NCBI GenBank assembly: GCA_963739295.1
Contig: CAVTZS010000015.1
Span: 13,574 to 77,573 of the forward strand
Reading direction: 5' to 3'
DNA from: an uncultured delta proteobacterium
GTDB lineage: Bacteria; Desulfobacterota; Desulfobaccia; Desulfobaccales; 0-14-0-80-60-11
Length of the DNA: 64,000 nt
Part shown: piece by piece, positions 50,869 to 60,799 of the stretch
How positions within the stretch are numbered: position 1 is the first letter of the stretch
Layout: each line of letters starts with the position of its first letter
Notes under the pieces: model-generated
Database searches by the model: none
The model's input: the letters and a program-made list of their open reading frames with translations, nothing else
Told to the model about the DNA's origin: nothing
Position numbers and translations under genes: made by a program

Positions 50869-51339
50869 ATGAATAAAGGCTTGTTTCAGAAATATTGCAT
50901 AGACACAAGTTCTCTAATAGAATTAAGGCATTACCCTCGGGTAACATTCCCTTCATTGTGGGAGAAGATTGAGGAACTTATAGGTCAGGGAATTCTAATA
51001 GCTCCTAGGGAGGTATATAGGGAACTTAAGCAACAAGCAGACGATATATATTTTTGGGCAAAGAATAATAAAACAATGTTTAAGGCTATAAATGGAAAAG
51101 AGTTATCAGAAGTGAAAGATATTTTAAAAGTTTATCCAGACCTTATTAATTATAATAAAACTACACCCGACGCCGATCCTTTCATCATTGCTTTAGCTAA
51201 GCATAGAGCATGTACTGTTATTACTCAAGAAAGATTGAAGCCTTCTGGTAAACCAAAAATTCCAAATGTTTGCAAAGATTATGGAATTAACTGTATTGAT
51301 TTATTAAGTTTATTTATTGAGCAAGAATGGTCTTTTTGA
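50869..51339 (+). CDS. DUF4411-family (PIN-like nuclease fold) protein
   Basis: ATG immediately follows the upstream TAA. YCIDTSSLIEL, DADPFIIALAK, VITQE match the recalled DUF4411 pattern. Confidence 0.7.
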   Translation: MNKGLFQKYCIDTSSLIELRHYPRVTFPSLWEKIEELIGQGILIAPREVYRELKQQADDIYFWAKNNKTMFKAINGKELSEVKDILKVYPDLINYNKTTPDADPFIIALAKHRACTVITQERLKPSGKPKIPNVCKDYGINCIDLLSLFIEQEWSF

Positions 51340-51347
51340 AAAAGTGG

Positions 51348-51360
51348 ATAATTGAAATAA
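51348..51360 (+). repeat. 13-bp direct repeat ATAATTGAAATAA, right copy
   Basis: Identical to 49683-49695. Confidence 0.6.
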
Positions 51361-51453
51361 TGATGGAATATTATTTATGATGAAATAGTGATAACCTATT
51401 GATATAATATTAAAAATATAGAATAATTAAGTTAGATAAAAAAGGAGTACAAT

Positions 51454-52564
51454 ATGTTACCTGAAATAGCCGAAATCCGGGCCAAATTGAAAGAATTTAA
51501 AGATAAGCTCACGCTCCTCCGAGGGCATCTTTGATCTGGAGGACAAGCAGGCCAGATTAGCAGAGTTAGAAAAGCAACTGGCCACGCCGGGACTGTGGGA
51601 GGATGCCACCCAGGCCGCCGACCTCTTAAGAGAGCGCAGCGCCCTGACCCAGGTGGTGGAAGATTGCCAGCAGCACTTTAAGCAGGTGGAGGACCTGGAA
51701 GTCCTGCTGGACCTAGCCCTGGAAGAGGACGATCAAGGGGCCCTGAAGGATGTGGCCCAGGACCTGGCCGTCCTGGAGGAAACCTATCAGGGTTGGGAGC
51801 TCAAGCTCCTTTTTACCGAAGAAGACCAGAAGAACGCCATCATTACCATCCATGCCGGCGCCGGCGGCACTGAGGCCCAGGATTGGGCCGAAATCTTGCT
51901 GCGCATGTATCTGCGCTATGCGGAACGCAAGGCCTTCAAGACCGAGACCCTGGACCTGTTGGTCGGGGACGAAGCCGGGATCAAGAGCGTCACCTTTACG
52001 GCCTCGGGAGACCACGCCTACGGCTATTTGAAGAGTGAAAGCGGCATCCACCGCCTGGTGCGCATCTCTCCTTTCGATGCCAGTGGCCGCCGCCATACCT
52101 CCTTTGCCGCGGTTCAGGTGCTGCCGGAGGTGGATGAAAAAATTGAGATCGACCTCAACGAGAAGGACTTGCGGATCGATACCTTCCGGGCCAGCGGCCC
52201 CGGCGGGCAACACGTTAATAAGACCAGCTCCGCGGTGCGCATCACCCACCTGCCCAGCGGCATTGTCGTCACCTCCCAAACCGAAAGATCGCAGCACCGC
52301 AATAAAGAGCTGGCCATGAAGGTCTTGCGGGCCCGCCTCTACAGTCTGGAGCAGCGCAAGCGGGAAGAAAAGAAACAGGAGCTGCAAGAGTCTCAGAAAG
52401 AAATCGCCTGGGGCAGCCAGATCCGTTCCTATACCCTTCAGCCCTACCGCCTGGTGAAGGACCACCGCACCAAGCACGAGGAAGGCAACGTGGATGCGGT
52501 CCTGGACGGCGACCTGGACCCCTTCGTGGAAGCCTATTTGATGCAGCCCGGGGAGGCTAAGTAG
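51454..52564 (+). CDS. prfB: peptide chain release factor 2, with programmed +1 frameshift (51454..51531 joined to 51533..52564)
   Basis: AAGGAG SD. MLPEIAEIRAKLKEFKDKLTLLRGHL, then in-frame TGA at 51532. The +1 frame continues DLEDKQARLAELEKQL... with SPF and GGQ motifs (SPFDASGRRHTSF, GPGGQHVNKTSSAVRITH). Confidence 0.9.
51522..51535 (+). promoter_or_regulatory. prfB autoregulatory +1 frameshift site
   Basis: GAGGG (SD-like), CAT, then CTT TGA T. Same layout as the classical AGGGGG-UAU-CUU-UGA-C site. Confidence 0.85.
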
Positions 52565-52645: not shown

Positions 52646-54376
52646 ATGAAAGTTTCCAGGTCGGCGCTTTTGGGGTTGGGGGCTCTGGTCGTGCTGGTGG
52701 CCGCCCTCTGGTACACCAGTCGTGCGGTTACCCCCAAGGAAGCCACCCGGGAGGACGTGCTGACCGAAGCCAGAGATGGCGGCTACCGGATCATCGACAC
52801 GGAAGAACTTTGGGAATATTGCCGCCAAGGCGCCCAAGACCTGCTGCTGGTGGACGTCCGGCCCGAGTGGGACTACCAGAAAGGTCATATCCAAGGGGCG
52901 GTTAACTTTCCTCTGGAACCCACCGCCTGGTCCAGATGGTGGAAAAAAGAGGCCCTGGAAAATTTTCTGGGACCTGATCGAAACCGGATAATCGTCTTTT
53001 ACTGAGCCGGGCTGGCCTGAGTCCGGAGCGACTCGGCGGCCCGGGTGGCCGTTAGAATCGGTTATAAGAACGTCTGCCGTGACCCCAGGGGCTTCCCGGA
53101 GTGGCAGTCCCGGGGTTTGCCGGTGGAACGCCCCTCGCTTGAACTCGCCGCCATCTCCCTGGACCCCAAGATTCCCGGGCCCTTATATGGCTGGGCCATG
53201 ATTTGGACGCTGCTGATGATCTTTGTCGGGGGCGTGGCTCTCAATCTGACCCCGTGCGTCTATCCCCTCCTGCCCATCACCGTCTCCTGTTTCGGGGGTC
53301 GCAGCGGCCAGACCCGGGGCCGGCTGGTGATCCACGGGCTGCTCTATGTAGGGGGCCTGTGTCTCACCAACTCCCTCCTGGGGGTGGCGGCGGCCCTGAC
53401 CGGGGGCCTTATGGGGGCCATGTTGCAAAGCCCCTGGGTGCTGGTGGCCGTGGCCGCGATCCTGGTCTTTTTTGCCACCAGCATGTTTGGCTTCTGGGAA
53501 CTGCGTCTGCCCGGGGGCCTGACCCGGGCCGCGGCCAAATCTTGCGCCGGTTACTTCGGCAGCCTGTTCATGGGATTGACCCTGGGGGTGGTGGCCGCGC
53601 CCTGCGTCGGTCCCTTTGTGCTGGGCCTGCTTACCTGGGTGGCCAGCCTGGGCTCCCCGCTCCTGGGTTTTATGGTGTTCTTCACTCTGAGCCTGGGCCT
53701 GGGTCTGCCTCTCTTCTTCCTGGCGGTCTTTTCCGGGAGCTTGGAAAAGCTTCCCCGTTCGGGGGAATGGCTTATCTGGGTGCGCCAGCTCATGGGCTGG
53801 GTCCTCCTCGGCATGGCCGCCTATTTTATCAGGCCGGTTCTTTTCGATCCTTGGGGAGTAATCCTCCTGGCGGCCATCGCCCTGGGAGCGGGGGTGCACC
53901 TGGGCTGGCTCGACCATACCATGGCCCATTTCCGGGCTTTTCCGTGGCTGAAGGCTGGCGCGGCGCTGGCGGGCCTCCTCCTGGCCCTCCTCTTCCTGGC
54001 AACCTGGGCGCTGCGCAGCCCCGGAATGGTCTGGCAGCCTTATTCCGAGGAGCTTCTGGCGGAAGCCAGGTTGCAGGGAAAACCGGTAATTATCGACTTT
54101 TATGCTATCTGGTGCGCCCCGTGCCAGGAAATGGAAAAGACTACCTTTCGTAATCCAGATATTGTTAAAATCGCGGCCCGGAATTTTATTACCATCAGGG
54201 TAGATCTCACCCGGTCCGGGAACCCCCTCAACCAGCGGTTGCTGAGGCAGTATGGGATCAAAGGGGTGCCCACGGTGATATTTTTGGATAGCCAGGGCCA
54301 GGAGCGCCCTGACCTGCGCCAGGTGGGTTACCTGCCGGCCGAGCAATTCCGTAACCGGATGGCCCAGATAAAATGA
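52646..54376 (+). CDS. rhodanese - DsbD/CcdA-type transmembrane core - thioredoxin fusion; two in-frame TGA codons (53003, 53018) read as putative selenocysteine
   Basis: One frame throughout (53045-52646 = 399). It reads ...RNRIIVFY-TGA-AGLA-TGA-VRSDSAARVAVRIGYKNV...FPEWQSRGLPVE. The first ORF stops at the rhodanese active-site loop and the second begins mid-domain. Downstream: LNLTPCVYP, AAPCVGP (DsbD core), FYAIWCAPCQ (Trx). Confidence 0.65.
53014..53041 (+). promoter_or_regulatory. SECIS-like hairpin after TGA 53003
   Basis: GGCC-UGAGUC-cggagc-GACUCG-(gc)-GGCC. The stem includes the second TGA. Confidence 0.4.
53035..53053 (+). promoter_or_regulatory. SECIS-like hairpin after TGA 53018
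   Basis: GGCGGCC-cgggu-GGCCGUU, starting 15 nt after the TGA. Confidence 0.45.
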
Positions 54377-54439
54377 ATGGAAGACAAAATGGGTCGCAGA
54401 CCCTTCGGCCCATATAGGAAAGGAAATTTAGGAGGTAAC

Positions 54440-54757
54440 ATGCTGAAGGTCAGGTGCTTCCTTAACGAACCCAACGGCAAACCCTGAAAGCATTTTCTCA
54501 AGATGGTGCCCAGGTTGGGCCAAAAATACCCCCTTGAGACGGAATTCATCTCCAAGCCTAAGGCCGAATACCAGACCGAGGAATACTTTGAGCTGGACCT
54601 GCCCGTGGCCCCCGCGGTGATGGTGGGCGAAGAGATCGTGGTGGAAGGCTCGGACGTGACGGAAGACACCCTGGAGGCGAAAATTCGCCTACACCTGGGC
54701 CTGCCTCCCCTGGAGCAGGCAAAAAAGGGAATTCTGAGCCGCTGGCTCGGGAAGTGA
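54440..54757 (+). CDS. small thioredoxin-fold-like protein with in-frame TGA (54485), putative selenoprotein
   Basis: Strong SD TAGGAGGT 6 nt before ATG 54440. MLKVRCFLNEPNGKP-TGA-KHFLKMVPRLGQKYP... is in frame with track ORF 54503..54757, which itself has no SD. PAVMVGEEIVVEGSDVTEDTLEAKI resembles the C-terminal half of small Trx/Grx-like proteins. Confidence 0.5.
54506..54521 (+). promoter_or_regulatory. SECIS-like hairpin after TGA 54485
   Basis: G-(u bulge)-GCCCA-ggu-UGGGC-C. The loop lies 26-28 nt after the TGA. Confidence 0.45.
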
Positions 54758-54766
54758 GGAGATTGT

Positions 54767-54808
54767 TTGGGGGAGGGCAGGGAGCTCAGCTCCCTGGCCC
54801 TCCCCCCA
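54767..54808. repeat. intergenic repeat, solo hp1 hairpin
   Basis: TTGGGGGAGGGCAGGGAGCTCAGCTCCCTGGCCCTCCCCCCA. Confidence 0.85.
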
Positions 54809-54864
54809 ACATTCCTTTAACCATCGCTTAAACCCGCTAGGACCCAGCGGGGTTATTTGGTGGG

Positions 54865-55707
54865 TCAGGTGGAGCCGGGTTTGCAGAAGCTTTCTTTTCC
54901 AGGTTCCACCAGGATTTGGGCCTGGGCCTCGATGGATGCTTGCGCCTTGGCATCCACCAGTTTTTCCCCGTAGAACAGAGCGCCTTCCGTATAGGCCGAG
55001 CTTTTGAATCCCGTATAGCCGGCCAAACCCGCCCGGTGGAAGCCAACCTGGAGCATGAGGGCCAGGAAATCCTTTCCTGGTATGGCCCCGCCGATTCACT
55101 GATACCAGTTTTCCGCCTTGCCGGCTATCTCAGGCGGCAGGTCTTGCACCAGAACCATGTCGGCCAGCATCAGGCGACCCCCGGCCTTCAGCACTCGCTG
55201 CGCTTCCCTTAAGGCCTTTTCTTTATCCAAAGTCAGGTTGAAGACCCCGTTGGAGATAATCACGTCAAATTCGTTATCCGGGAAGGGCAGAGATTCGGCT
55301 TCGCCCACCTGGAAGGTGACGTTTTCTAAACCCAGCAGGGCGAGGTTGGCCCTGGCCTTCTCGATCATCTCCGGCGTCACGTCCAGGCCCACCACCCGGC
55401 CCCGGGGGCCCACCAGCTTGGCGGCCACCAGGGTGTCAAAGCCATTCCCGCAGCCAATATCCAGGACGGCCTCTCCCGCATAGAGCGGGCCCAGGCTGAA
55501 GGGATTTCCCACCCCGCAGAAGGAGTCCACGATGGGTTTAGGAAAAACCCGGATAATTTCCGGAGGATATTTTTGCTGCCTGAGCCCCTCTTCCCCGATG
55601 GGGTACTGGAAGCAGCAGGCGGTGCCCGAGGCCGCCACCCGGGAATATTTTTCCCGGATGCCATCCCGGATGGTGACCCTTTCTTGATCCGTCAGGTGTT
55701 GCGTCAT
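54865..55707 (-). CDS. ArsM-like SAM-dependent methyltransferase with in-frame TGA (55098..55096), putative selenoprotein
   Basis: VLDIGCGNGFD (motif I), N-terminal CC pair, FCGVGNP, then ...AENWYQ-TGA-IGGAIPGKDFLALMLQVGF. This aligns with the ArsM W.GC(V/I)AGA...GF segment. The two track ORFs (55096..55707 and 54865..55056) are in one frame. The SNC(V/I)xNL cysteine is Gly here (ISNGVFNL). Confidence 0.7.
55062..55080 (-). promoter_or_regulatory. SECIS-like hairpin after TGA 55098..55096
   Basis: Minus strand CCAGGAAA-gga-UUUCCUGG, starting 16 nt after the TGA. Confidence 0.45.
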
Positions 55708-55746: not shown

Positions 55747-56319
55747 TTATTTCTTTGCCTCTTTCAGCTTTTTGCCCGCGCTCCAGGCCTTCCCGGCGTG
55801 CTCTCCCACGGTCCAGTAGTTATTGTCCGGCATGGTCAGGAGCAAGGGATTCATTTTGCGGATGTCAAGCTTGCCGTCCGTGAGGTAGCGTTCCTCGGTG
55901 TAGCTGGAGACGATTTCGCCCACGAACAGGTGATTGCCGGGGAACTCCACGATGTCCACCAGCTGACATTCCAGGCACAGGGGGCACTCCTTGATCATCG
56001 GCGCGGTTTTAAGTTCTCCGTAAAAGACCTGAAAGAGGCTGGATTTATCGGCTTTCCGGCCCGAGACCAGCCCGCAATAGTCAGTCTGGGCTACCAGGTC
56101 GGCGCTGGGAAAGTTCACGCTGAAGGTGCGGTTCTCCCGGATGCCGATGGGGGTGAAATGGCCCTGGTTGAGAGACACGGCCAGAAGGGGAGGGTTGAGG
56201 TTGACCCGGGTCAGCCAGGCCACGGCCAGGAAATTGGGCCGCCCGGCCACGTTGGCCCCCACCAGGGTCACGGGCATGGGATAGACAAAGACGTTGGTGC
56301 CAAGATTAATCTTGTTCAT
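55747..56319 (-). CDS. flavin reductase-like (FMN-binding split-barrel) protein
   Basis: MNKINLGTNVFVYPMPVTLVGANVAGRPNFLAVAW. ATGA overlap with the upstream paralogue. Confidence 0.75.
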   Translation of the reverse strand: MNKINLGTNVFVYPMPVTLVGANVAGRPNFLAVAWLTRVNLNPPLLAVSLNQGHFTPIGIRENRTFSVNFPSADLVAQTDYCGLVSGRKADKSSLFQVFYGELKTAPMIKECPLCLECQLVDIVEFPGNHLFVGEIVSSYTEERYLTDGKLDIRKMNPLLLTMPDNNYWTVGEHAGKAWSAGKKLKEAKK

Positions 56320-56885
56320 CAGAGATCCTTTCCTATGGAGAAGGCCAGGCCCAGGTATTTCCCGATACCGTGATAGGTGCGGATTTCCGGGCCAAAGATA
56401 ATGGGTCTCACCTTTTCGATGTCGGGGAAGCCGGTCTCTCCCAGAACGGTTGCCTCGGCCTTGACGTCCAGGATTTTCCCGATGAATTGGGTATGCAGGC
56501 CGATCTCCAGGGTATGAATCACCTGGCATTCCAAAATCAGCGGGAACTCCTTAATGAACGGCGCGTCCACCAGACTGCTGCTCACCGGCGTGAGCCGGGA
56601 GACGGCGAATTTGTTCACTTCCTCTCCCGTGACCATCCCGAAGTAATCCGCGGCCTTGACGTGCTCTTCCGAAGGTATGTTGATGGTAAAGGCCTTCCGG
56701 GCCACGATGTTGCCGTAGGAGTAAGTGGCTTTCCTAAGAGAGACGGCTACGCAGGGCGGGCTGGAGCAGCAGATGGAGGCCCAGGCCGCGGTCATCACGT
56801 TGGGTTTGCCGTCTGGCCCATAGGTCCCCACCACCCAGACCGGGGTGGGGAAGGCCAGGGTCCGGGGGCCTAAAGATTTCTTCAT
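56319..56885 (-). CDS. flavin reductase-like (FMN-binding split-barrel) protein
   Basis: The Met at 56885 is preceded by AGGAGG. MKKSLGPRTLAFPTPVWVVGTYGPDGKPNVMTAAW. Confidence 0.75.
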   Translation of the reverse strand: MKKSLGPRTLAFPTPVWVVGTYGPDGKPNVMTAAWASICCSSPPCVAVSLRKATYSYGNIVARKAFTINIPSEEHVKAADYFGMVTGEEVNKFAVSRLTPVSSSLVDAPFIKEFPLILECQVIHTLEIGLHTQFIGKILDVKAEATVLGETGFPDIEKVRPIIFGPEIRTYHGIGKYLGLAFSIGKDL

Positions 56886-57028
56886 GGCGACACCTCCTGT
56901 TAAAGAAATTAAGACTTCGGGGCAAAAAAACAAGAAATTAAAGAGAGCGGCCGGCATGAATGGGTTAGCAGCCAGGGCTTAATCCTGAAAGTTATAATAA
57001 TAAGCCTTCATTTTTTTCTTGCAATATA

Positions 57029-57532: not shown

Positions 57533-57572
57533 CTTTTCGAAAATTTCAATTTTTCTTCAAGAGGAGAGGTCT

Positions 57573-57959
57573 ATGAAGATTGCGGTAGCTTCGGATGATG
57601 GTATCGTTCTCGCCCCGCATTTCGGCCGCAGCCGATACTTCCTGGTGTTTGACGTCCTGGAAGGCCATATCTCCGGCCCGGAGACCCGCGCCAACGGATT
57701 CACTGCGTTTGCCCACGGGGAATGCGGCTCCCAGTCACACGGCCACCACGCCCATAGTCATGACGCCCTGGTGTCGGCCCTGCATGATTGCCAGGTGGTT
57801 ATGGCCGGGGGCATGGGTAGACGGGCGGCCCTTGATCTGCAAGACCACGGCATTCAGCCACTGGTGGTGCCTTTCGCCGGCCCTGCAGTGGAGGCCGTCA
57901 AGGCGTACCTGTCCGGGTCCATCAAATCCCTGGATACCTGGTGCTGCGGCCATCAGTAA
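57573..57959 (+). CDS. NifB/NifX-type dinitrogenase Fe-Mo cofactor-binding domain protein
   Basis: GAGGAGAGG SD. MKIAVASDDGIVLAPHFGRSRYFLVFDV, VVMAGGMGRRAALDLQDHGI. Confidence 0.75.
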   Translation: MKIAVASDDGIVLAPHFGRSRYFLVFDVLEGHISGPETRANGFTAFAHGECGSQSHGHHAHSHDALVSALHDCQVVMAGGMGRRAALDLQDHGIQPLVVPFAGPAVEAVKAYLSGSIKSLDTWCCGHQ

Positions 57960-59440: not shown

Positions 59441-60799
59441 TTATTCCTCTTCCTCGAATTCGATCCCGTCCCGTTCGAACTGGGCGTCACGCTCGGTGTG
59501 GGCCGCCTCGATTTCCTCCTCGCTCCAGGGCTCATAGTCCAGCACTTTGGACACCAGTTCCCAAAGGTATAGGGTCTCTTCGTAGTTGCCCATGTCATGG
59601 ACCTTGGGCAGCCCCTTCATGATCTGGTCTCGACAGTTGTGGCAGGGGGCCACGACAATCTCCGCGCCGGTGTCCTTGATCTGGTCTGCCTTCACCTTGC
59701 CGTAGGCCAGGCGCTCCTGGTCGTAGGGCATGGCCCAGGCGCCGCCCCCGGCGCCGCAACAGAAGTTGTTCAGGGGGTCGTCGCACATCTCGCGGTACAG
59801 GCTCTCGTCAATGCACTGTTTTGAAATCCAGCGGCACATCTCTCCGTTGTTAGGTTCATCCTTATAAAGCATATAGGACTTGCGCACGTAGTTGCAAGGG
59901 TCGTGCACCGTGAAGGTGTGGTGGATTTTAGTCTTGTCCAGCTTGATTCGGCCGGATTTGATGTATTCTATTAGCAGATCCATGATGCTCACTACCTTGA
60001 ATTCGTCGAAAACTTCCGGAAACCAATTGTTGAACCCGACCCGGGTTGCAAAGTAGGCGTGCCCTCATTCGGGGTACAAGATGGTTTTCGCCTTTACTCG
60101 TCGGGCGTTCTCGATGATCCGACTCACCTGTTCCTTCCAGGACGGGTCGTCACCGGAGAACAGCCCCCAGTTAACCCCTTCCCAGTTAGTCGAGGACACG
60201 GTCCAGTCTTCCTTGGCGGCATAGAAGATGCGCCACCAGAACTTCATGTCGTCGGGCTCGCCGAAGGGCTCCTTGGAGTTAATGGTGACGATGATGTTGG
60301 CCCCTTCCTTGTCCACCGGCACATAGAAGCCGGGGCAGGGCTGCTCCTCGTCTTCCTCCATCTCCTTGCCCAACTCTGCCAGGAGGAACAGGAAATCATC
60401 CCTGGGAATGCCGAGGTTGTTGCCCCTCTGCAGATTCATCATGGTGCCCTTATGGATGGGTCCGGGGACCTTGTCCCGCTCCCGCAACGTGCGGCAGGCC
60501 CGGAAGGTCTTCATTAATTTAATCCCCATGGGGCACTGATACTCGCAGCGGCCGCACAGGGTGCAGACCCAGGGCCACTTGGAGTCAATGACCTCCTGCT
60601 CCATACCGAAGACTATGGCCCGGATGGCCTTGCGGGAATCCCAGCCGGTCTCCGAGCCCGGCATGGTGACCAGGCCGGTGGCGGGGCAGCCTCCGGCGCA
60701 GGTGCCACAGGTATAACAGCGATCCGCCAACTCGGGGGCAATCCCGATTTTGCGGTGCTTCCTGTCTACCCTGACCTCTTGTATGACATCCTCTGCCAT
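59441..60799 (-). CDS. HdrD/GlpC-like Fe-S oxidoreductase (2x[4Fe-4S] plus CCG domain) with in-frame TGA (60067..60065), putative selenoprotein
   Basis: CYTCGTCAGGCP and CTLCGRCEYQCP, ...KTILYPE-TGA-GHAYFATRV..., then HDPCNYVRK and FCCGAGGG. The two track ORFs (60065..60799 and 59441..59992) are in one frame (60064-59992 = 72). Confidence 0.7.
60030..60051 (-). promoter_or_regulatory. SECIS-like hairpin after TGA 60067..60065
   Basis: Minus strand UUG-(c bulge)-AACCCG-ggu-CGGGUU-CAA. The loop lies 24-26 nt after the TGA. Confidence 0.5.

What the first reader, a model, noticed from the sequence alone, without database searches (positions are those of the whole stretch)
54440..54757. Small Trx-fold ORF whose strong ribosome-binding site is 45 nt upstream of an in-frame TGA
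TAGGAGGT precedes ATG 54440. Fifteen codons later a TGA (54485) is in frame with the 84-aa track ORF at 54503, which has no SD of its own.

The joined 105-aa product reads MLKVRCFLNEPNGKP-U-KHFLK...PAVMVGEEIVVEGSDVTEDTLEAKI. This layout, with a beta strand, a redox residue at a helix start and a C-terminal beta-beta-alpha, recalls small thioredoxin/glutaredoxin-like proteins. A bulged hairpin with a GGU loop follows at 54506-54521.

The gene sits 63 nt after the DsbD fusion, so it may be its redox partner. That last point is inference.
Basis: partly seen in the sequence, partly recalled or inferred. Interest (0 to 1): 0.6.

Follow-up and report, generated by a model that had tools for sequence, protein, structure and literature searches.

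The report
Known selenoprotein TsoC, mis-called as truncated

Summary
AGGAGGT lies at 54430-54436, the ATG at 54440, an in-frame TGA at 54485-54487 and the stop at 54755-54757. The 105-codon reading is one gene.

With U replaced by C, the product scores 143.6 bits (cut-off 45) on NCBIfam NF045708, "NEPxGxxU motif selenoprotein TsoC". The gene 63 nt upstream has two in-frame TGAs. It scores 945.5 bits (cut-off 805) as the rhodanese/DsbD-fusion selenoprotein TsoB.

All 85 distinct Sec-form copies (80 species genomes, one metagenome contig, the window) carry TGA at codon 16. The 15 codons before it are conserved as protein while varying synonymously. A 5-bp hairpin, GCCCA-GG[U/C]-UGGGC at 54508-54520, is paired in every cell of a 79-sequence alignment, and its codons show almost no synonymous variation. 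Cys-form homologues exist, and four of six have lost most or all of the hairpin.

AlphaFold on a Cys homologue gives a thioredoxin fold with the Sec position at the start of helix 1.

The family and its operon are in Haft & Tolstoy 2025, as cited by a 2026 review. This window lacks tsoA. The biochemical role is still unknown. Low novelty.

The parts
54429..54436 (+). Shine-Dalgarno sequence TAGGAGGT of tsoC
   Evidence: Read directly. An SD-like 4-mer lies 4-18 nt before ATG1 in 76 of 85 homologues, against 1 of 85 before Met22.
54440..54757 (+). tsoC coding sequence: 105 codons including Sec16, then a TGA stop
   Evidence: NCBIfam NF045708 gives 143.6 bits against a cut-off of 45, aligned over residues 2-87. 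tblastn matches cover query residues 1 or 2 through 103-105 in 80 species genomes.
54464..54487 (+). NEPxGxxU motif (N9 E10 P11 N12 G13 K14 P15 U16)
   Evidence: The translation is. The motif residues are invariant or nearly so in the homologues.
54485..54487 (+). UGA selenocysteine codon (codon 16)
   Evidence: TGA in all 85 distinct Sec-form copies. It is TGT or TGC in 6 distinct Cys-form homologues.
54508..54520 (+). Candidate bacterial SECIS core: 5-bp stem GCCCA/UGGGC with loop GGU, starting 20 nt after the UGA
   Evidence: RNAalifold predicts exactly this helix as the consensus structure. All 395 cells are paired in 79 sequences, with one GC->UA double change and 8 wobble changes. Synonymous codon choice is nearly fixed: CCC 84/84, AGG 78/78, YTG 85/85 and GGC 79/84, against 39%, 13%, 60% and 42% elsewhere in the same genes.
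54769..54806 (+). Very stable GC-rich hairpin just after the tsoC stop, likely the end of the transcription unit
   Evidence: RNAfold on 54755-54825 gives -47.2 kcal/mol with z = -5.61. The spurious miRNA-like Rfam hits fall on it.
54833..54851 (+). Terminator-like stem-loop followed by a T-rich tail
   Evidence: Consensus scan.
52646..54376 (+). tsoB: N-terminal anchor, rhodanese domain with U-AGLA-U (TGAs at 53003-53005 and 53018-53020), DsbD-type membrane domain, C-terminal thioredoxin domain (WCAPC)
   Evidence: NF045694 gives 945.5 bits against a cut-off of 805 over 9-576 of 576 residues with U->C. Pfam finds DsbD_TM, Thioredoxin and Rhodanese.

Best explanation
Window 54440-54757 is one gene, tsoC. 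It encodes a 105-residue, signal-peptide-less protein of the thioredoxin fold. Its catalytic residue is a selenocysteine encoded by UGA at codon 16, within the motif NEPNGKPU.

Translation starts at the strong SD and ATG 54440. At the UGA, SelB with Sec-tRNA(Sec) is recruited by a small hairpin 20 nt downstream (54508-54520, loop GGU). Selenocysteine is therefore inserted instead of terminating. The second TGA, at 54755, has no such hairpin and terminates.

tsoC follows tsoB, possibly in one transcription unit with prfB. TsoB is a DsbD-like membrane redox relay in which a rhodanese domain with a U-x4-U pair sits where DsbD has its alpha domain.

What is shown in silico: gene structure, family membership, Sec/Cys pairing, the RNA constraint, the fold and the synteny.

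What is inferred:
- The hairpin binds SelB.
- TsoC is cytoplasmic.
- Its selenol exchanges electrons, or sulfur or selenium, with TsoB. The most likely role is cytoplasmic-side donor to TsoB's membrane cysteine pair, the role thioredoxin plays for DsbD.
For: **Family membership**
- TsoC model NF045708 scores 143.6 bits against a cut-off of 45.
- TsoB model NF045694 scores 945.5 bits against 805.

**One reading frame through the TGA**
- TGA sits at codon 16 in all 85 distinct Sec-form copies.
- Codons 1-15 keep their amino acids in 51-100% of copies (at least 85% at 13 of the 15). They use up to six synonymous codons each.
- ENA entries that print W at this position carry TGA in the one contig checked.
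- True Cys forms carry TGT or TGC.

**The hairpin**
- It is the RNAalifold consensus and is 100% paired.
- Its codons are nearly frozen at synonymous sites.
- In Cys forms residues 25-27 drift. The 5-bp helix is intact in 1 of 6 (L083), keeps only 4 bp in 2 (L002 and L088) and is abolished in 3.

**Fold**
- AlphaFold2 on Cys homologue P0009 gives pLDDT 83.8, a thioredoxin-fold topology, and helix 14-29 beginning just before residue 16.
- The Foldseek top hits are mostly thioredoxins, with glutaredoxins and ArsD among them.

**Context**
- TsoB lies upstream on the same strand in most loci with enough flank.
- At least three other in-frame-TGA genes in the window match known protein families across the TGA. 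The organism therefore appears to decode UGA as Sec.
Against: - There is no experimental evidence of Sec insertion for this gene.
- The conserved stem is only 5 bp, has no conserved lower stem, and alone is no more stable than shuffles.
- No tRNA-Sec was found in the 64 kb. None of the ten large ORFs tested is selA, selB or selD; that test was not exhaustive.
- Rfam gives no SECIS match.
- The structure model is of a 64%-identical homologue, and the Foldseek E-values are weak (1.6e-3 and above).
- Only one redox residue is universal. Cys83 is absent in this window, and about 8 of 85 copies have neither Cys6 nor Cys83. A thioredoxin-style two-electron donor role is therefore not straightforward.
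Confidence: 0.93

Rival explanations
1. 54440-54487 is a separate 15-codon leader peptide (uORF) that ends at the TGA. The real protein is the 84-residue ORF starting at ATG 54503, as most database entries have it.
For: Most of the listed database homologues are called as 83-89 aa proteins starting at or near Met22. Met22 is conserved in 94% of copies.
Against: - The 15 upstream codons are conserved as protein with free synonymous change, and are always in frame with the downstream ORF.
- Cys-form homologues are continuous ORFs.
- The curated model and the predicted fold both need strand 1 and the start of helix 1 from that segment.
- Only 1 of 85 copies has any SD-like 4-mer before Met22.
Confidence: 0.03
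2. The UGA is read through by a near-cognate tRNA, or by a reassigned code (UGA = Trp or Gly), not by the selenocysteine machinery.
For: ENA gene calls print W at this position. No Sec machinery gene or tRNA-Sec was seen in the window.
Against: - tsoC and tsoB themselves end in TGA, so UGA is a stop in this genome.
- The residue aligns with Cys, not Trp or Gly, in TGA-free homologues.
- A conserved hairpin accompanies the TGA and decays when the codon becomes TGY.
- The position is the redox site of a thioredoxin fold.
Confidence: 0.03
3. TsoC is a real selenoprotein but not an electron donor. It acts as a carrier or chaperone that holds sulfur, selenium or a metalloid on its single selenol (TusA-like or ArsD-like) and hands it on within the Tso and neighbouring methyltransferase chemistry.
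For: - Only one redox residue is universal.
- ArsD, a thioredoxin-fold metallochaperone, is among the fold hits.
- The partner carries a rhodanese (sulfur/selenium transferase) domain.
- An ArsM-like selenoprotein methyltransferase lies next door here and in at least 8 other loci.
Against: Nothing direct. The DsbD-type membrane domain plus the thioredoxin domain of TsoB point to disulfide relay chemistry. The methyltransferase is on the opposite strand and is absent from most loci.
Confidence: 0.3

Closest known systems
TsoC, NEPxGxxU motif selenoprotein (NCBIfam NF045708; Haft & Tolstoy 2025, mSystems 10:e0141724, as listed in PMC13188914)
   Same: Full-length HMM match above the cut-off. Identical NEPxGxxU motif with Sec encoded by TGA. 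Sits next to TsoB, with other unrelated selenoprotein genes adjacent, as the review describes for Tso operons.
   Different: No tsoA anywhere in the 64-kb window: prfB ends 82 nt before tsoB. In 47 related loci tsoA sits upstream on the same strand. The usually conserved Cys83 (ICRHLG) is Arg-Leu here, and Cys6 is present instead.
Thioredoxin and glutaredoxin (thioredoxin-fold CxxC oxidoreductases)
   Same: Predicted b-a-b-a-b-b-a topology. The redox residue sits at the N-terminus of helix 1. A conserved Pro (APA) precedes strand 3. Small size.
   Different: No CxxC: the motif is GxxU, with a single selenol in the second position. No Pfam thioredoxin-family match and no sequence-detectable relative in the PDB.
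Rdx family selenoproteins (SelW, SelT, SelH; CxxU motif). Comparison from general knowledge, not tested here.
   Same: Small thioredoxin-like fold with Sec in the second position of the xxU motif after strand 1.
   Different: The first-position Cys is replaced by Gly. No sequence similarity was detected.
DsbD with cytoplasmic thioredoxin as its electron donor (E. coli paradigm, from established knowledge)
   Same: TsoB has the DsbD membrane domain with two Cys-containing helices (TPC and APC) and a C-terminal thioredoxin domain. A small cytoplasmic thioredoxin-fold protein is encoded beside it.
   Different: A rhodanese domain carrying UxxxxU sits where DsbD has its alpha domain. The candidate donor has one Sec rather than a dithiol. 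No interaction has been shown.
Bacterial SECIS elements (E. coli fdhF, Moorella thermoacetica fdhA)
   Same: A hairpin inside the coding sequence just downstream of the UGA, with G and U in the apical loop.
   Different: Only 5 conserved base pairs and a 3-nt loop. The stem starts 20 nt after the UGA, further than the 11 nt I recall from memory for fdhF. There is no conserved bulged U.

Membership tests
TsoC (NCBIfam NF045708) | Whole-protein HMM score at or above the curated cut-off (45 bits) | tested here: met
   143.6 bits, E = 1.3e-42, residues 2-87 on model positions 1-86 of 87, with U replaced by C.
TsoC (NCBIfam NF045708) | NEPxGxxU motif with U encoded by an in-frame TGA | tested here: met
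   NEPNGKP-TGA at 54464-54487. The same motif and codon occur in all 85 distinct Sec-form copies.
TsoC (NCBIfam NF045708) | Existence of Cys-containing homologues aligned at the Sec position | tested here: met
   Six distinct TGT/TGC forms: L002, L083, L086, L087, L088, L089.
Tso three-selenoprotein operon (TsoA-TsoB-TsoC) | TsoB (rhodanese/DsbD fusion with UxxxxU) encoded alongside | tested here: met
   52646-54376 scores 945.5 bits against a cut-off of 805 and carries U-AGLA-U. It ends 63 nt before tsoC.
Tso three-selenoprotein operon (TsoA-TsoB-TsoC) | TsoA (LULAxC motif selenoprotein) encoded alongside | tested here: not met
   No L-TGA-LAxC motif in any frame of the window. There is no credible tblastn hit with four TsoA sequences: the best is E = 0.004 over 25 residues. 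TsoA is present upstream in 47 related loci. About 11 other loci with enough flank also lack it.
Thioredoxin-fold superfamily | b1-a1-b2-a2-b3-b4-a3 topology with the redox residue at the N-terminus of helix 1 | tested here: met
   The AlphaFold2 model of Cys homologue P0009 has E2-10, H14-29, E32-40, H41-51, E59-62, E65-69 and H75-86, with pLDDT 83.8. Foldseek PDB hits are mostly thioredoxins, with Grx and ArsD, at TM 0.45-0.57. The model is not of the window protein itself.
Thioredoxin-fold superfamily | CxxC active-site motif | tested here: not met
   The motif is G-K-P-U, with no Cys at -3 in any homologue.
Thioredoxin-fold superfamily | Sequence-profile membership (Pfam thioredoxin clan, or relatives of solved structures) | tested here: not met
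   Pfam gives only a sub-threshold DUF5818 hit. A profile search of PDB sequences finds nothing meaningful.
Bacterial SECIS | Stem-loop shortly downstream of the UGA with G in the apical loop, conserved among Sec forms | tested here: met
   54508-54520, loop GG[U/C], 100% paired in 79 sequences. Synonymous sites are frozen. Most or all of the helix is lost in 4 of 6 Cys forms.
Bacterial SECIS | Binding of SelB and selB/selC-dependent Sec insertion | not testable with these tools
   This needs experiment. No Sec machinery genes were identified within the window.

The most novel reading that the evidence does not exclude
In this lineage the Tso system has been reduced to a two-gene tsoB-tsoC pair without TsoA. 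TsoC is the dedicated cytoplasmic selenol donor that feeds the DsbD-like membrane module of TsoB. That would make an all-chalcogen relay: Sec in TsoC, then the membrane Cys pair, then the thioredoxin CxxC, then the extracytoplasmic U-x4-U rhodanese. Cys6 would have been recruited to replace the lost Cys83 as the resolving residue. A related point: the conserved P-R-L-G residues of TsoC are held largely by the RNA hairpin rather than by the protein.
Probability: 0.2. Interest if true: 0.55.

Novelty: already known. Interest (0 to 1): 0.22.

Why it matters
The biology is already published, so the value here is mainly practical.

- **Annotation.** Most of the homologues listed by the search are stored as 83-89 aa fragments. 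They lack strand 1 and the selenocysteine active site, because gene callers stop at the TGA. The window's own product is on record only as an 84-aa entry.
- **Family detail that can be tested.** The work defines a minimal 5-bp SECIS core whose sequence dictates four codons. It finds rare Cys forms in different genomic contexts that have shed the hairpin. It shows that the second cysteine is variable and that tsoA can be absent.
- **Open question.** The function of the Tso system is unknown. A DsbD-type relay ending in a diselenide-capable rhodanese domain would be an unusual piece of anaerobe redox chemistry.

Tried and rejected
**Readings considered and rejected**
- Leader peptide, or a start at Met22. 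Rejected on N-terminal protein-level conservation, the continuous Cys forms, and the SD position.
- Pseudogene. Rejected because TGA is at the same codon in every Sec-form copy and the flanks are conserved.
- Genetic-code reassignment. Rejected because tsoB and tsoC both terminate at TGA.
- The longer upstream start at ATG 54377 listed by the ORF finder. Rejected because homologues begin at MLKV with their own SD.
Neither is conserved.
- Strict complementarity of Cys6 and Cys83. Not supported: 15 copies have both and about 8 have neither, although Cys6 is enriched where Cys83 is missing (not corrected for phylogeny).
- The two adjacent minus-strand ORFs at 28630-26519, apparently joined by TGAs, are two ordinary genes.

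**Searches that gave nothing**
- Pfam.
- PDB sequence-profile search.
- Rfam, which returned only spurious miRNA-like hits on the terminator hairpin.

- The window protein could not be folded.
- The primary paper, Haft & Tolstoy 2025, is not held in the library. Its proposals are known here only through the 2026 review.
- The contig of the identical 84-aa database entry could not be retrieved.

Full report
**1. Observation**

- TAGGAGGT lies at 54429-54436 and the ATG at 54440.
- Fifteen sense codons follow (MLKVRCFLNEPNGKP), then TGA at 54485-54487.
- The frame continues KHFLK-M(54503)-VPRLGQKY... to a TGA stop at 54755-54757.
- The upstream gene ends at 54376, 63 nt before the ATG.
- GCCCA-GGU-UGGGC forms a hairpin at 54508-54520. 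In this window one further G-C pair (54506/54521) encloses a bulged U.

**2. What it is**

With U written as C, the 105-residue product matches NCBIfam NF045708, "NEPxGxxU motif selenoprotein TsoC". The score is 143.6 bits against a curated cut-off of 45, and the match runs over almost the whole model. Pfam has no family for it.

The upstream gene, 52646-54376, reads through two in-frame TGAs at 53003-53005 and 53018-53020. They spell FY-U-AGLA-U-VRS in the rhodanese active-site loop. [quoted passage not shown]

Both families appear in the selenoprotein table of a 2026 review (PMC13188914), along with TsoA (LULAxC), TsoX and TsoY. The review attributes them to Haft & Tolstoy, mSystems 2025. 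It describes the "Tso (three selenoprotein operon)" as three selenoprotein genes with further unrelated selenoprotein genes adjacent. The primary paper is not in the held library.

**3. Independent evidence that the TGA is decoded**

*Homologue survey.* A protein search with the U->C sequence found 2359 relatives.
- Most of those listed are stored as 83-89 aa proteins beginning near Met22.
- The 103-106 aa entries read MLKVRFFLNEPNGKP[W/C]KHF.
- In the one W entry checked, the DNA carries TGA translated with a Trp-reading code (L001).
- The C entries checked are genuine TGT or TGC (L002, and others).

*Genome survey.* A scan of one genome per species found 391 genomes with a relative. The best 80 are labelled Desulfobaccales, Syntrophobacterales, Syntrophales, Desulfobacterales, or more broadly Deltaproteobacteria, Thermodesulfobacteriota or Pseudomonadota. 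All match query residues 1 or 2 through 103-105, that is, across the TGA.

*Codon 16 and its flanks.*
- All 85 distinct Sec-form copies carry TGA at codon 16.
- Codons 1-15 keep their amino acid in 51-100% of copies, and in at least 85% at 13 of the 15.
- The same codons use up to six synonymous codons: Leu2 and Arg5 use six, Gly13 and Pro15 four. This is the signature of translation in this frame.

*Start site.* An SD-like 4-mer precedes ATG1 in 76 of 85 copies and Met22 in 1 of 85.

*UGA is still a stop.* tsoC and tsoB both end in TGA, so UGA remains a stop codon in this organism.

**4. The RNA element**

RNAalifold on 79 TGA-containing sequences returns exactly one consensus helix, alignment columns 30-34 with 38-42. 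That corresponds to window 54508-54512 paired with 54516-54520.
- All 395 cells are standard pairs.
- The nine departures are one compensatory GC->UA change and eight wobble changes.

Base-pair covariation is necessarily sparse because the stem is almost invariant. The stronger argument is codon choice:

| Codon | Use in the hairpin | Same amino acid elsewhere in these genes |
|---|---|---|
| Pro24 | CCC in 84/84 | CCC 39% |
| Arg25 | AGG in 78/78 | AGG 13% |
| Leu26 | YTG in 85/85 | YTG 60% |
| Gly27 | GGC in 79/84 | GGC 42% |

In the six distinct Cys-form genes, residues 25-27 drift (R/K/V/G, L/I, G/K/D/E). The 5-bp helix is intact in one (L083). It is reduced to four pairs with a different loop in two (L002 and L088). 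It is abolished in three. The hairpin therefore travels with the TGA, as expected of a SECIS.

Caveats:
- The conserved stem is only 5 bp with a 3-nt loop.
- It starts 20 nt after the UGA.
- It has no conserved lower stem. It appears in the minimum-energy fold of 66 of 79 sequences.
- As an isolated 24-mer it is no more stable than shuffled sequence, with z = -0.04.
- Rfam has no matching family.

**5. Fold**

AlphaFold2 was run on the 64%-identical Cys homologue P0009 with an 86-sequence alignment. The window protein itself could not be submitted.
- The model has pLDDT 83.8 and pTM 0.73.
- Its elements are E2-10, H14-29, E32-40, H41-44/47-51, E59-62, E65-69 and H75-86.
- This is the b-a-b-a-b-b-a thioredoxin fold. 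The Sec position (16) lies at the N-terminus of helix 1, and the invariant A57-P58-A59 lies just before strand 3, where thioredoxins have their cis-proline.
- Foldseek against the PDB returns mostly thioredoxins, with glutaredoxins and ArsD among them. The scores are weak: best E = 1.6e-3, TM 0.45-0.57.
- A sequence profile finds no solved relative.

The motif is G-x-x-U, so there is no thiol in the first position. The next most conserved cysteine, Cys83 in ICRHLG, is present in 62 of 85 copies and is replaced in this window by IRLHLG. Cys6 is present here and in 30 of 85 copies, and it is enriched where Cys83 is missing. About 8 copies have neither. The only universal redox residue is therefore the selenol.

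**6. Context**

*Synteny with TsoB.* tblastn with the three TsoB domains shows TsoB upstream of tsoC on the same strand in most loci with enough flank. It lies either 20-150 nt away or with about one gene between.

*TsoA.* TsoA (HL-U-LAxC) lies further upstream in 47 loci.
- The window has no TsoA. The motif is absent in all six frames, and tblastn finds nothing credible.
- prfB ends 82 nt before tsoB. Seven related loci have prfB on the same strand upstream of tsoA, in the order prfB, tsoA, tsoB, tsoC.
- About 11 other loci also lack tsoA.

*Transcription unit.* Promoter-like sites cluster only upstream of prfB (51336-51427). A -47 kcal/mol hairpin and a terminator-like site follow tsoC. This suggests a prfB-tsoB-tsoC transcription unit, which is an inference.

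*TsoB topology, read from the sequence.* TsoB has an N-terminal anchor, about eight hydrophobic helices with TPC and APC cysteines, and a WCAPC thioredoxin domain. This is the DsbD layout, with rhodanese(UxxxxU) where DsbD has its alpha domain.

*TsoC location.* TsoC has no signal peptide, so it is presumably cytoplasmic.

**7. Mechanism**

Shown in silico: one gene; Sec16 specified by UGA plus a conserved downstream hairpin; a thioredoxin fold with the selenol at the canonical active-site position; conserved linkage to TsoB.

Inferred:
- SelB recognises the hairpin.
- TsoC exchanges electrons with TsoB, most simply as the cytoplasmic-side donor to the membrane cysteine pair, by analogy with thioredoxin and DsbD.
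- A carrier or chaperone role for a sulfur, selenium or metalloid adduct is a serious alternative. The grounds are the single selenol, the rhodanese partner, the ArsD-like fold hits, and the ArsM-like selenoprotein next door.

**8. Novelty and verdict**

The family, its motif, its partner and the operon concept are already published and built into NCBI's annotation models. This is a correct rediscovery, not a new kind of element.

This analysis adds modest, partly new detail. Without access to the primary paper I cannot say which points were already reported:
- the minimal SECIS core and its grip on four codons;
- the decay of that core in Cys forms;
- the variability of the second cysteine;
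- a tsoA-less arrangement.

Interest is low, at about 0.2.

Noticed in passing
window 52646-54376 (+), TGAs at 53003-53005 and 53018-53020: The upstream "DsbD fusion" is itself a double selenoprotein, TsoB. Its rhodanese active-site loop reads FY-U-AGLA-U-VRS, so a diselenide is possible. Gene callers split it into a 119-aa and a 443-aa ORF. A stable structure follows the first TGA and encloses the second (-34 kcal/mol, z = -2.45).
   Followed up: partly
window 55707-54865 (-), TGA at 55096-55098: An ArsM-like methyltransferase has an in-frame TGA (WYQ-U-IGGA). It scores 496 bits against a cut-off of 460 on NF047649, "methyltransferase/UXPK-star double selenoprotein". Here the C-terminus is F-C-K-P-G-S-T-stop, so the second Sec implied by the family name appears to be Cys. 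A relative with at least 64% identity over nearly the full length lies downstream of tsoC on the opposite strand in at least 8 related loci.
   Followed up: partly
window 60799-59441 (-), TGA at 60065-60067: An HdrD/DsrK/HmcF-like iron-sulfur protein has an in-frame TGA (ILYPE-U-GHAY). The HmcF, TmcB and DsrK model alignments run straight across the TGA. It is probably a fourth selenoprotein gene within 8 kb.
   Followed up: partly
window 51454-52564 (+), shift site 51526-51535: prfB (release factor 2, which reads UGA) has its canonical +1 frameshift site, CAT CTT TGA T. It lies directly upstream of tsoB here. It is also upstream of tsoA-tsoB in seven other species' loci (L003, L010, L012, L014, L031, L050, L064). 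This is probably lineage synteny, but it is a curious neighbour for a UGA-recoding operon.
   Followed up: partly
window 54769-54806 (+): An exceptionally stable, nearly perfect GC-rich hairpin (-47 kcal/mol, z = -5.6) sits immediately after the tsoC stop, between the convergent tsoC and methyltransferase genes. It drew a string of spurious miRNA-family Rfam hits.
   Followed up: partly
L083-L085, L086, L087, L088, L089, L002: Cys forms of TsoC are rare among the close relatives. In two of the contigs with an informative upstream flank they are not next to a TsoB. In L084/L085 the upstream gene is an HTH-rhodanese, followed by CCG/Fer4 genes. In L087 the Cys form follows a DUF8269/TauE gene, and a second, Sec-form copy lies upstream of that gene. 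L002, by contrast, follows a DsbD-type Trx domain, and the 554-aa gene upstream in L089 was not characterised.
   Followed up: no
L011, L015, L054, L065, L077: Some genomes carry two TsoC paralogues in tandem or close by. The second copy often has a GKT-U or GLT-U variant and a divergent central YSK/LNLP region. Both copies keep the TGA and the hairpin.
   Followed up: no
window 55747-56957 (-): Two adjacent flavin-reductase-like ORFs (weak RutF, StyB and HpaC matches) follow the methyltransferase on the minus strand. A NifX/NifB-C-terminal-like small protein lies at 57570-57959.
   Followed up: no
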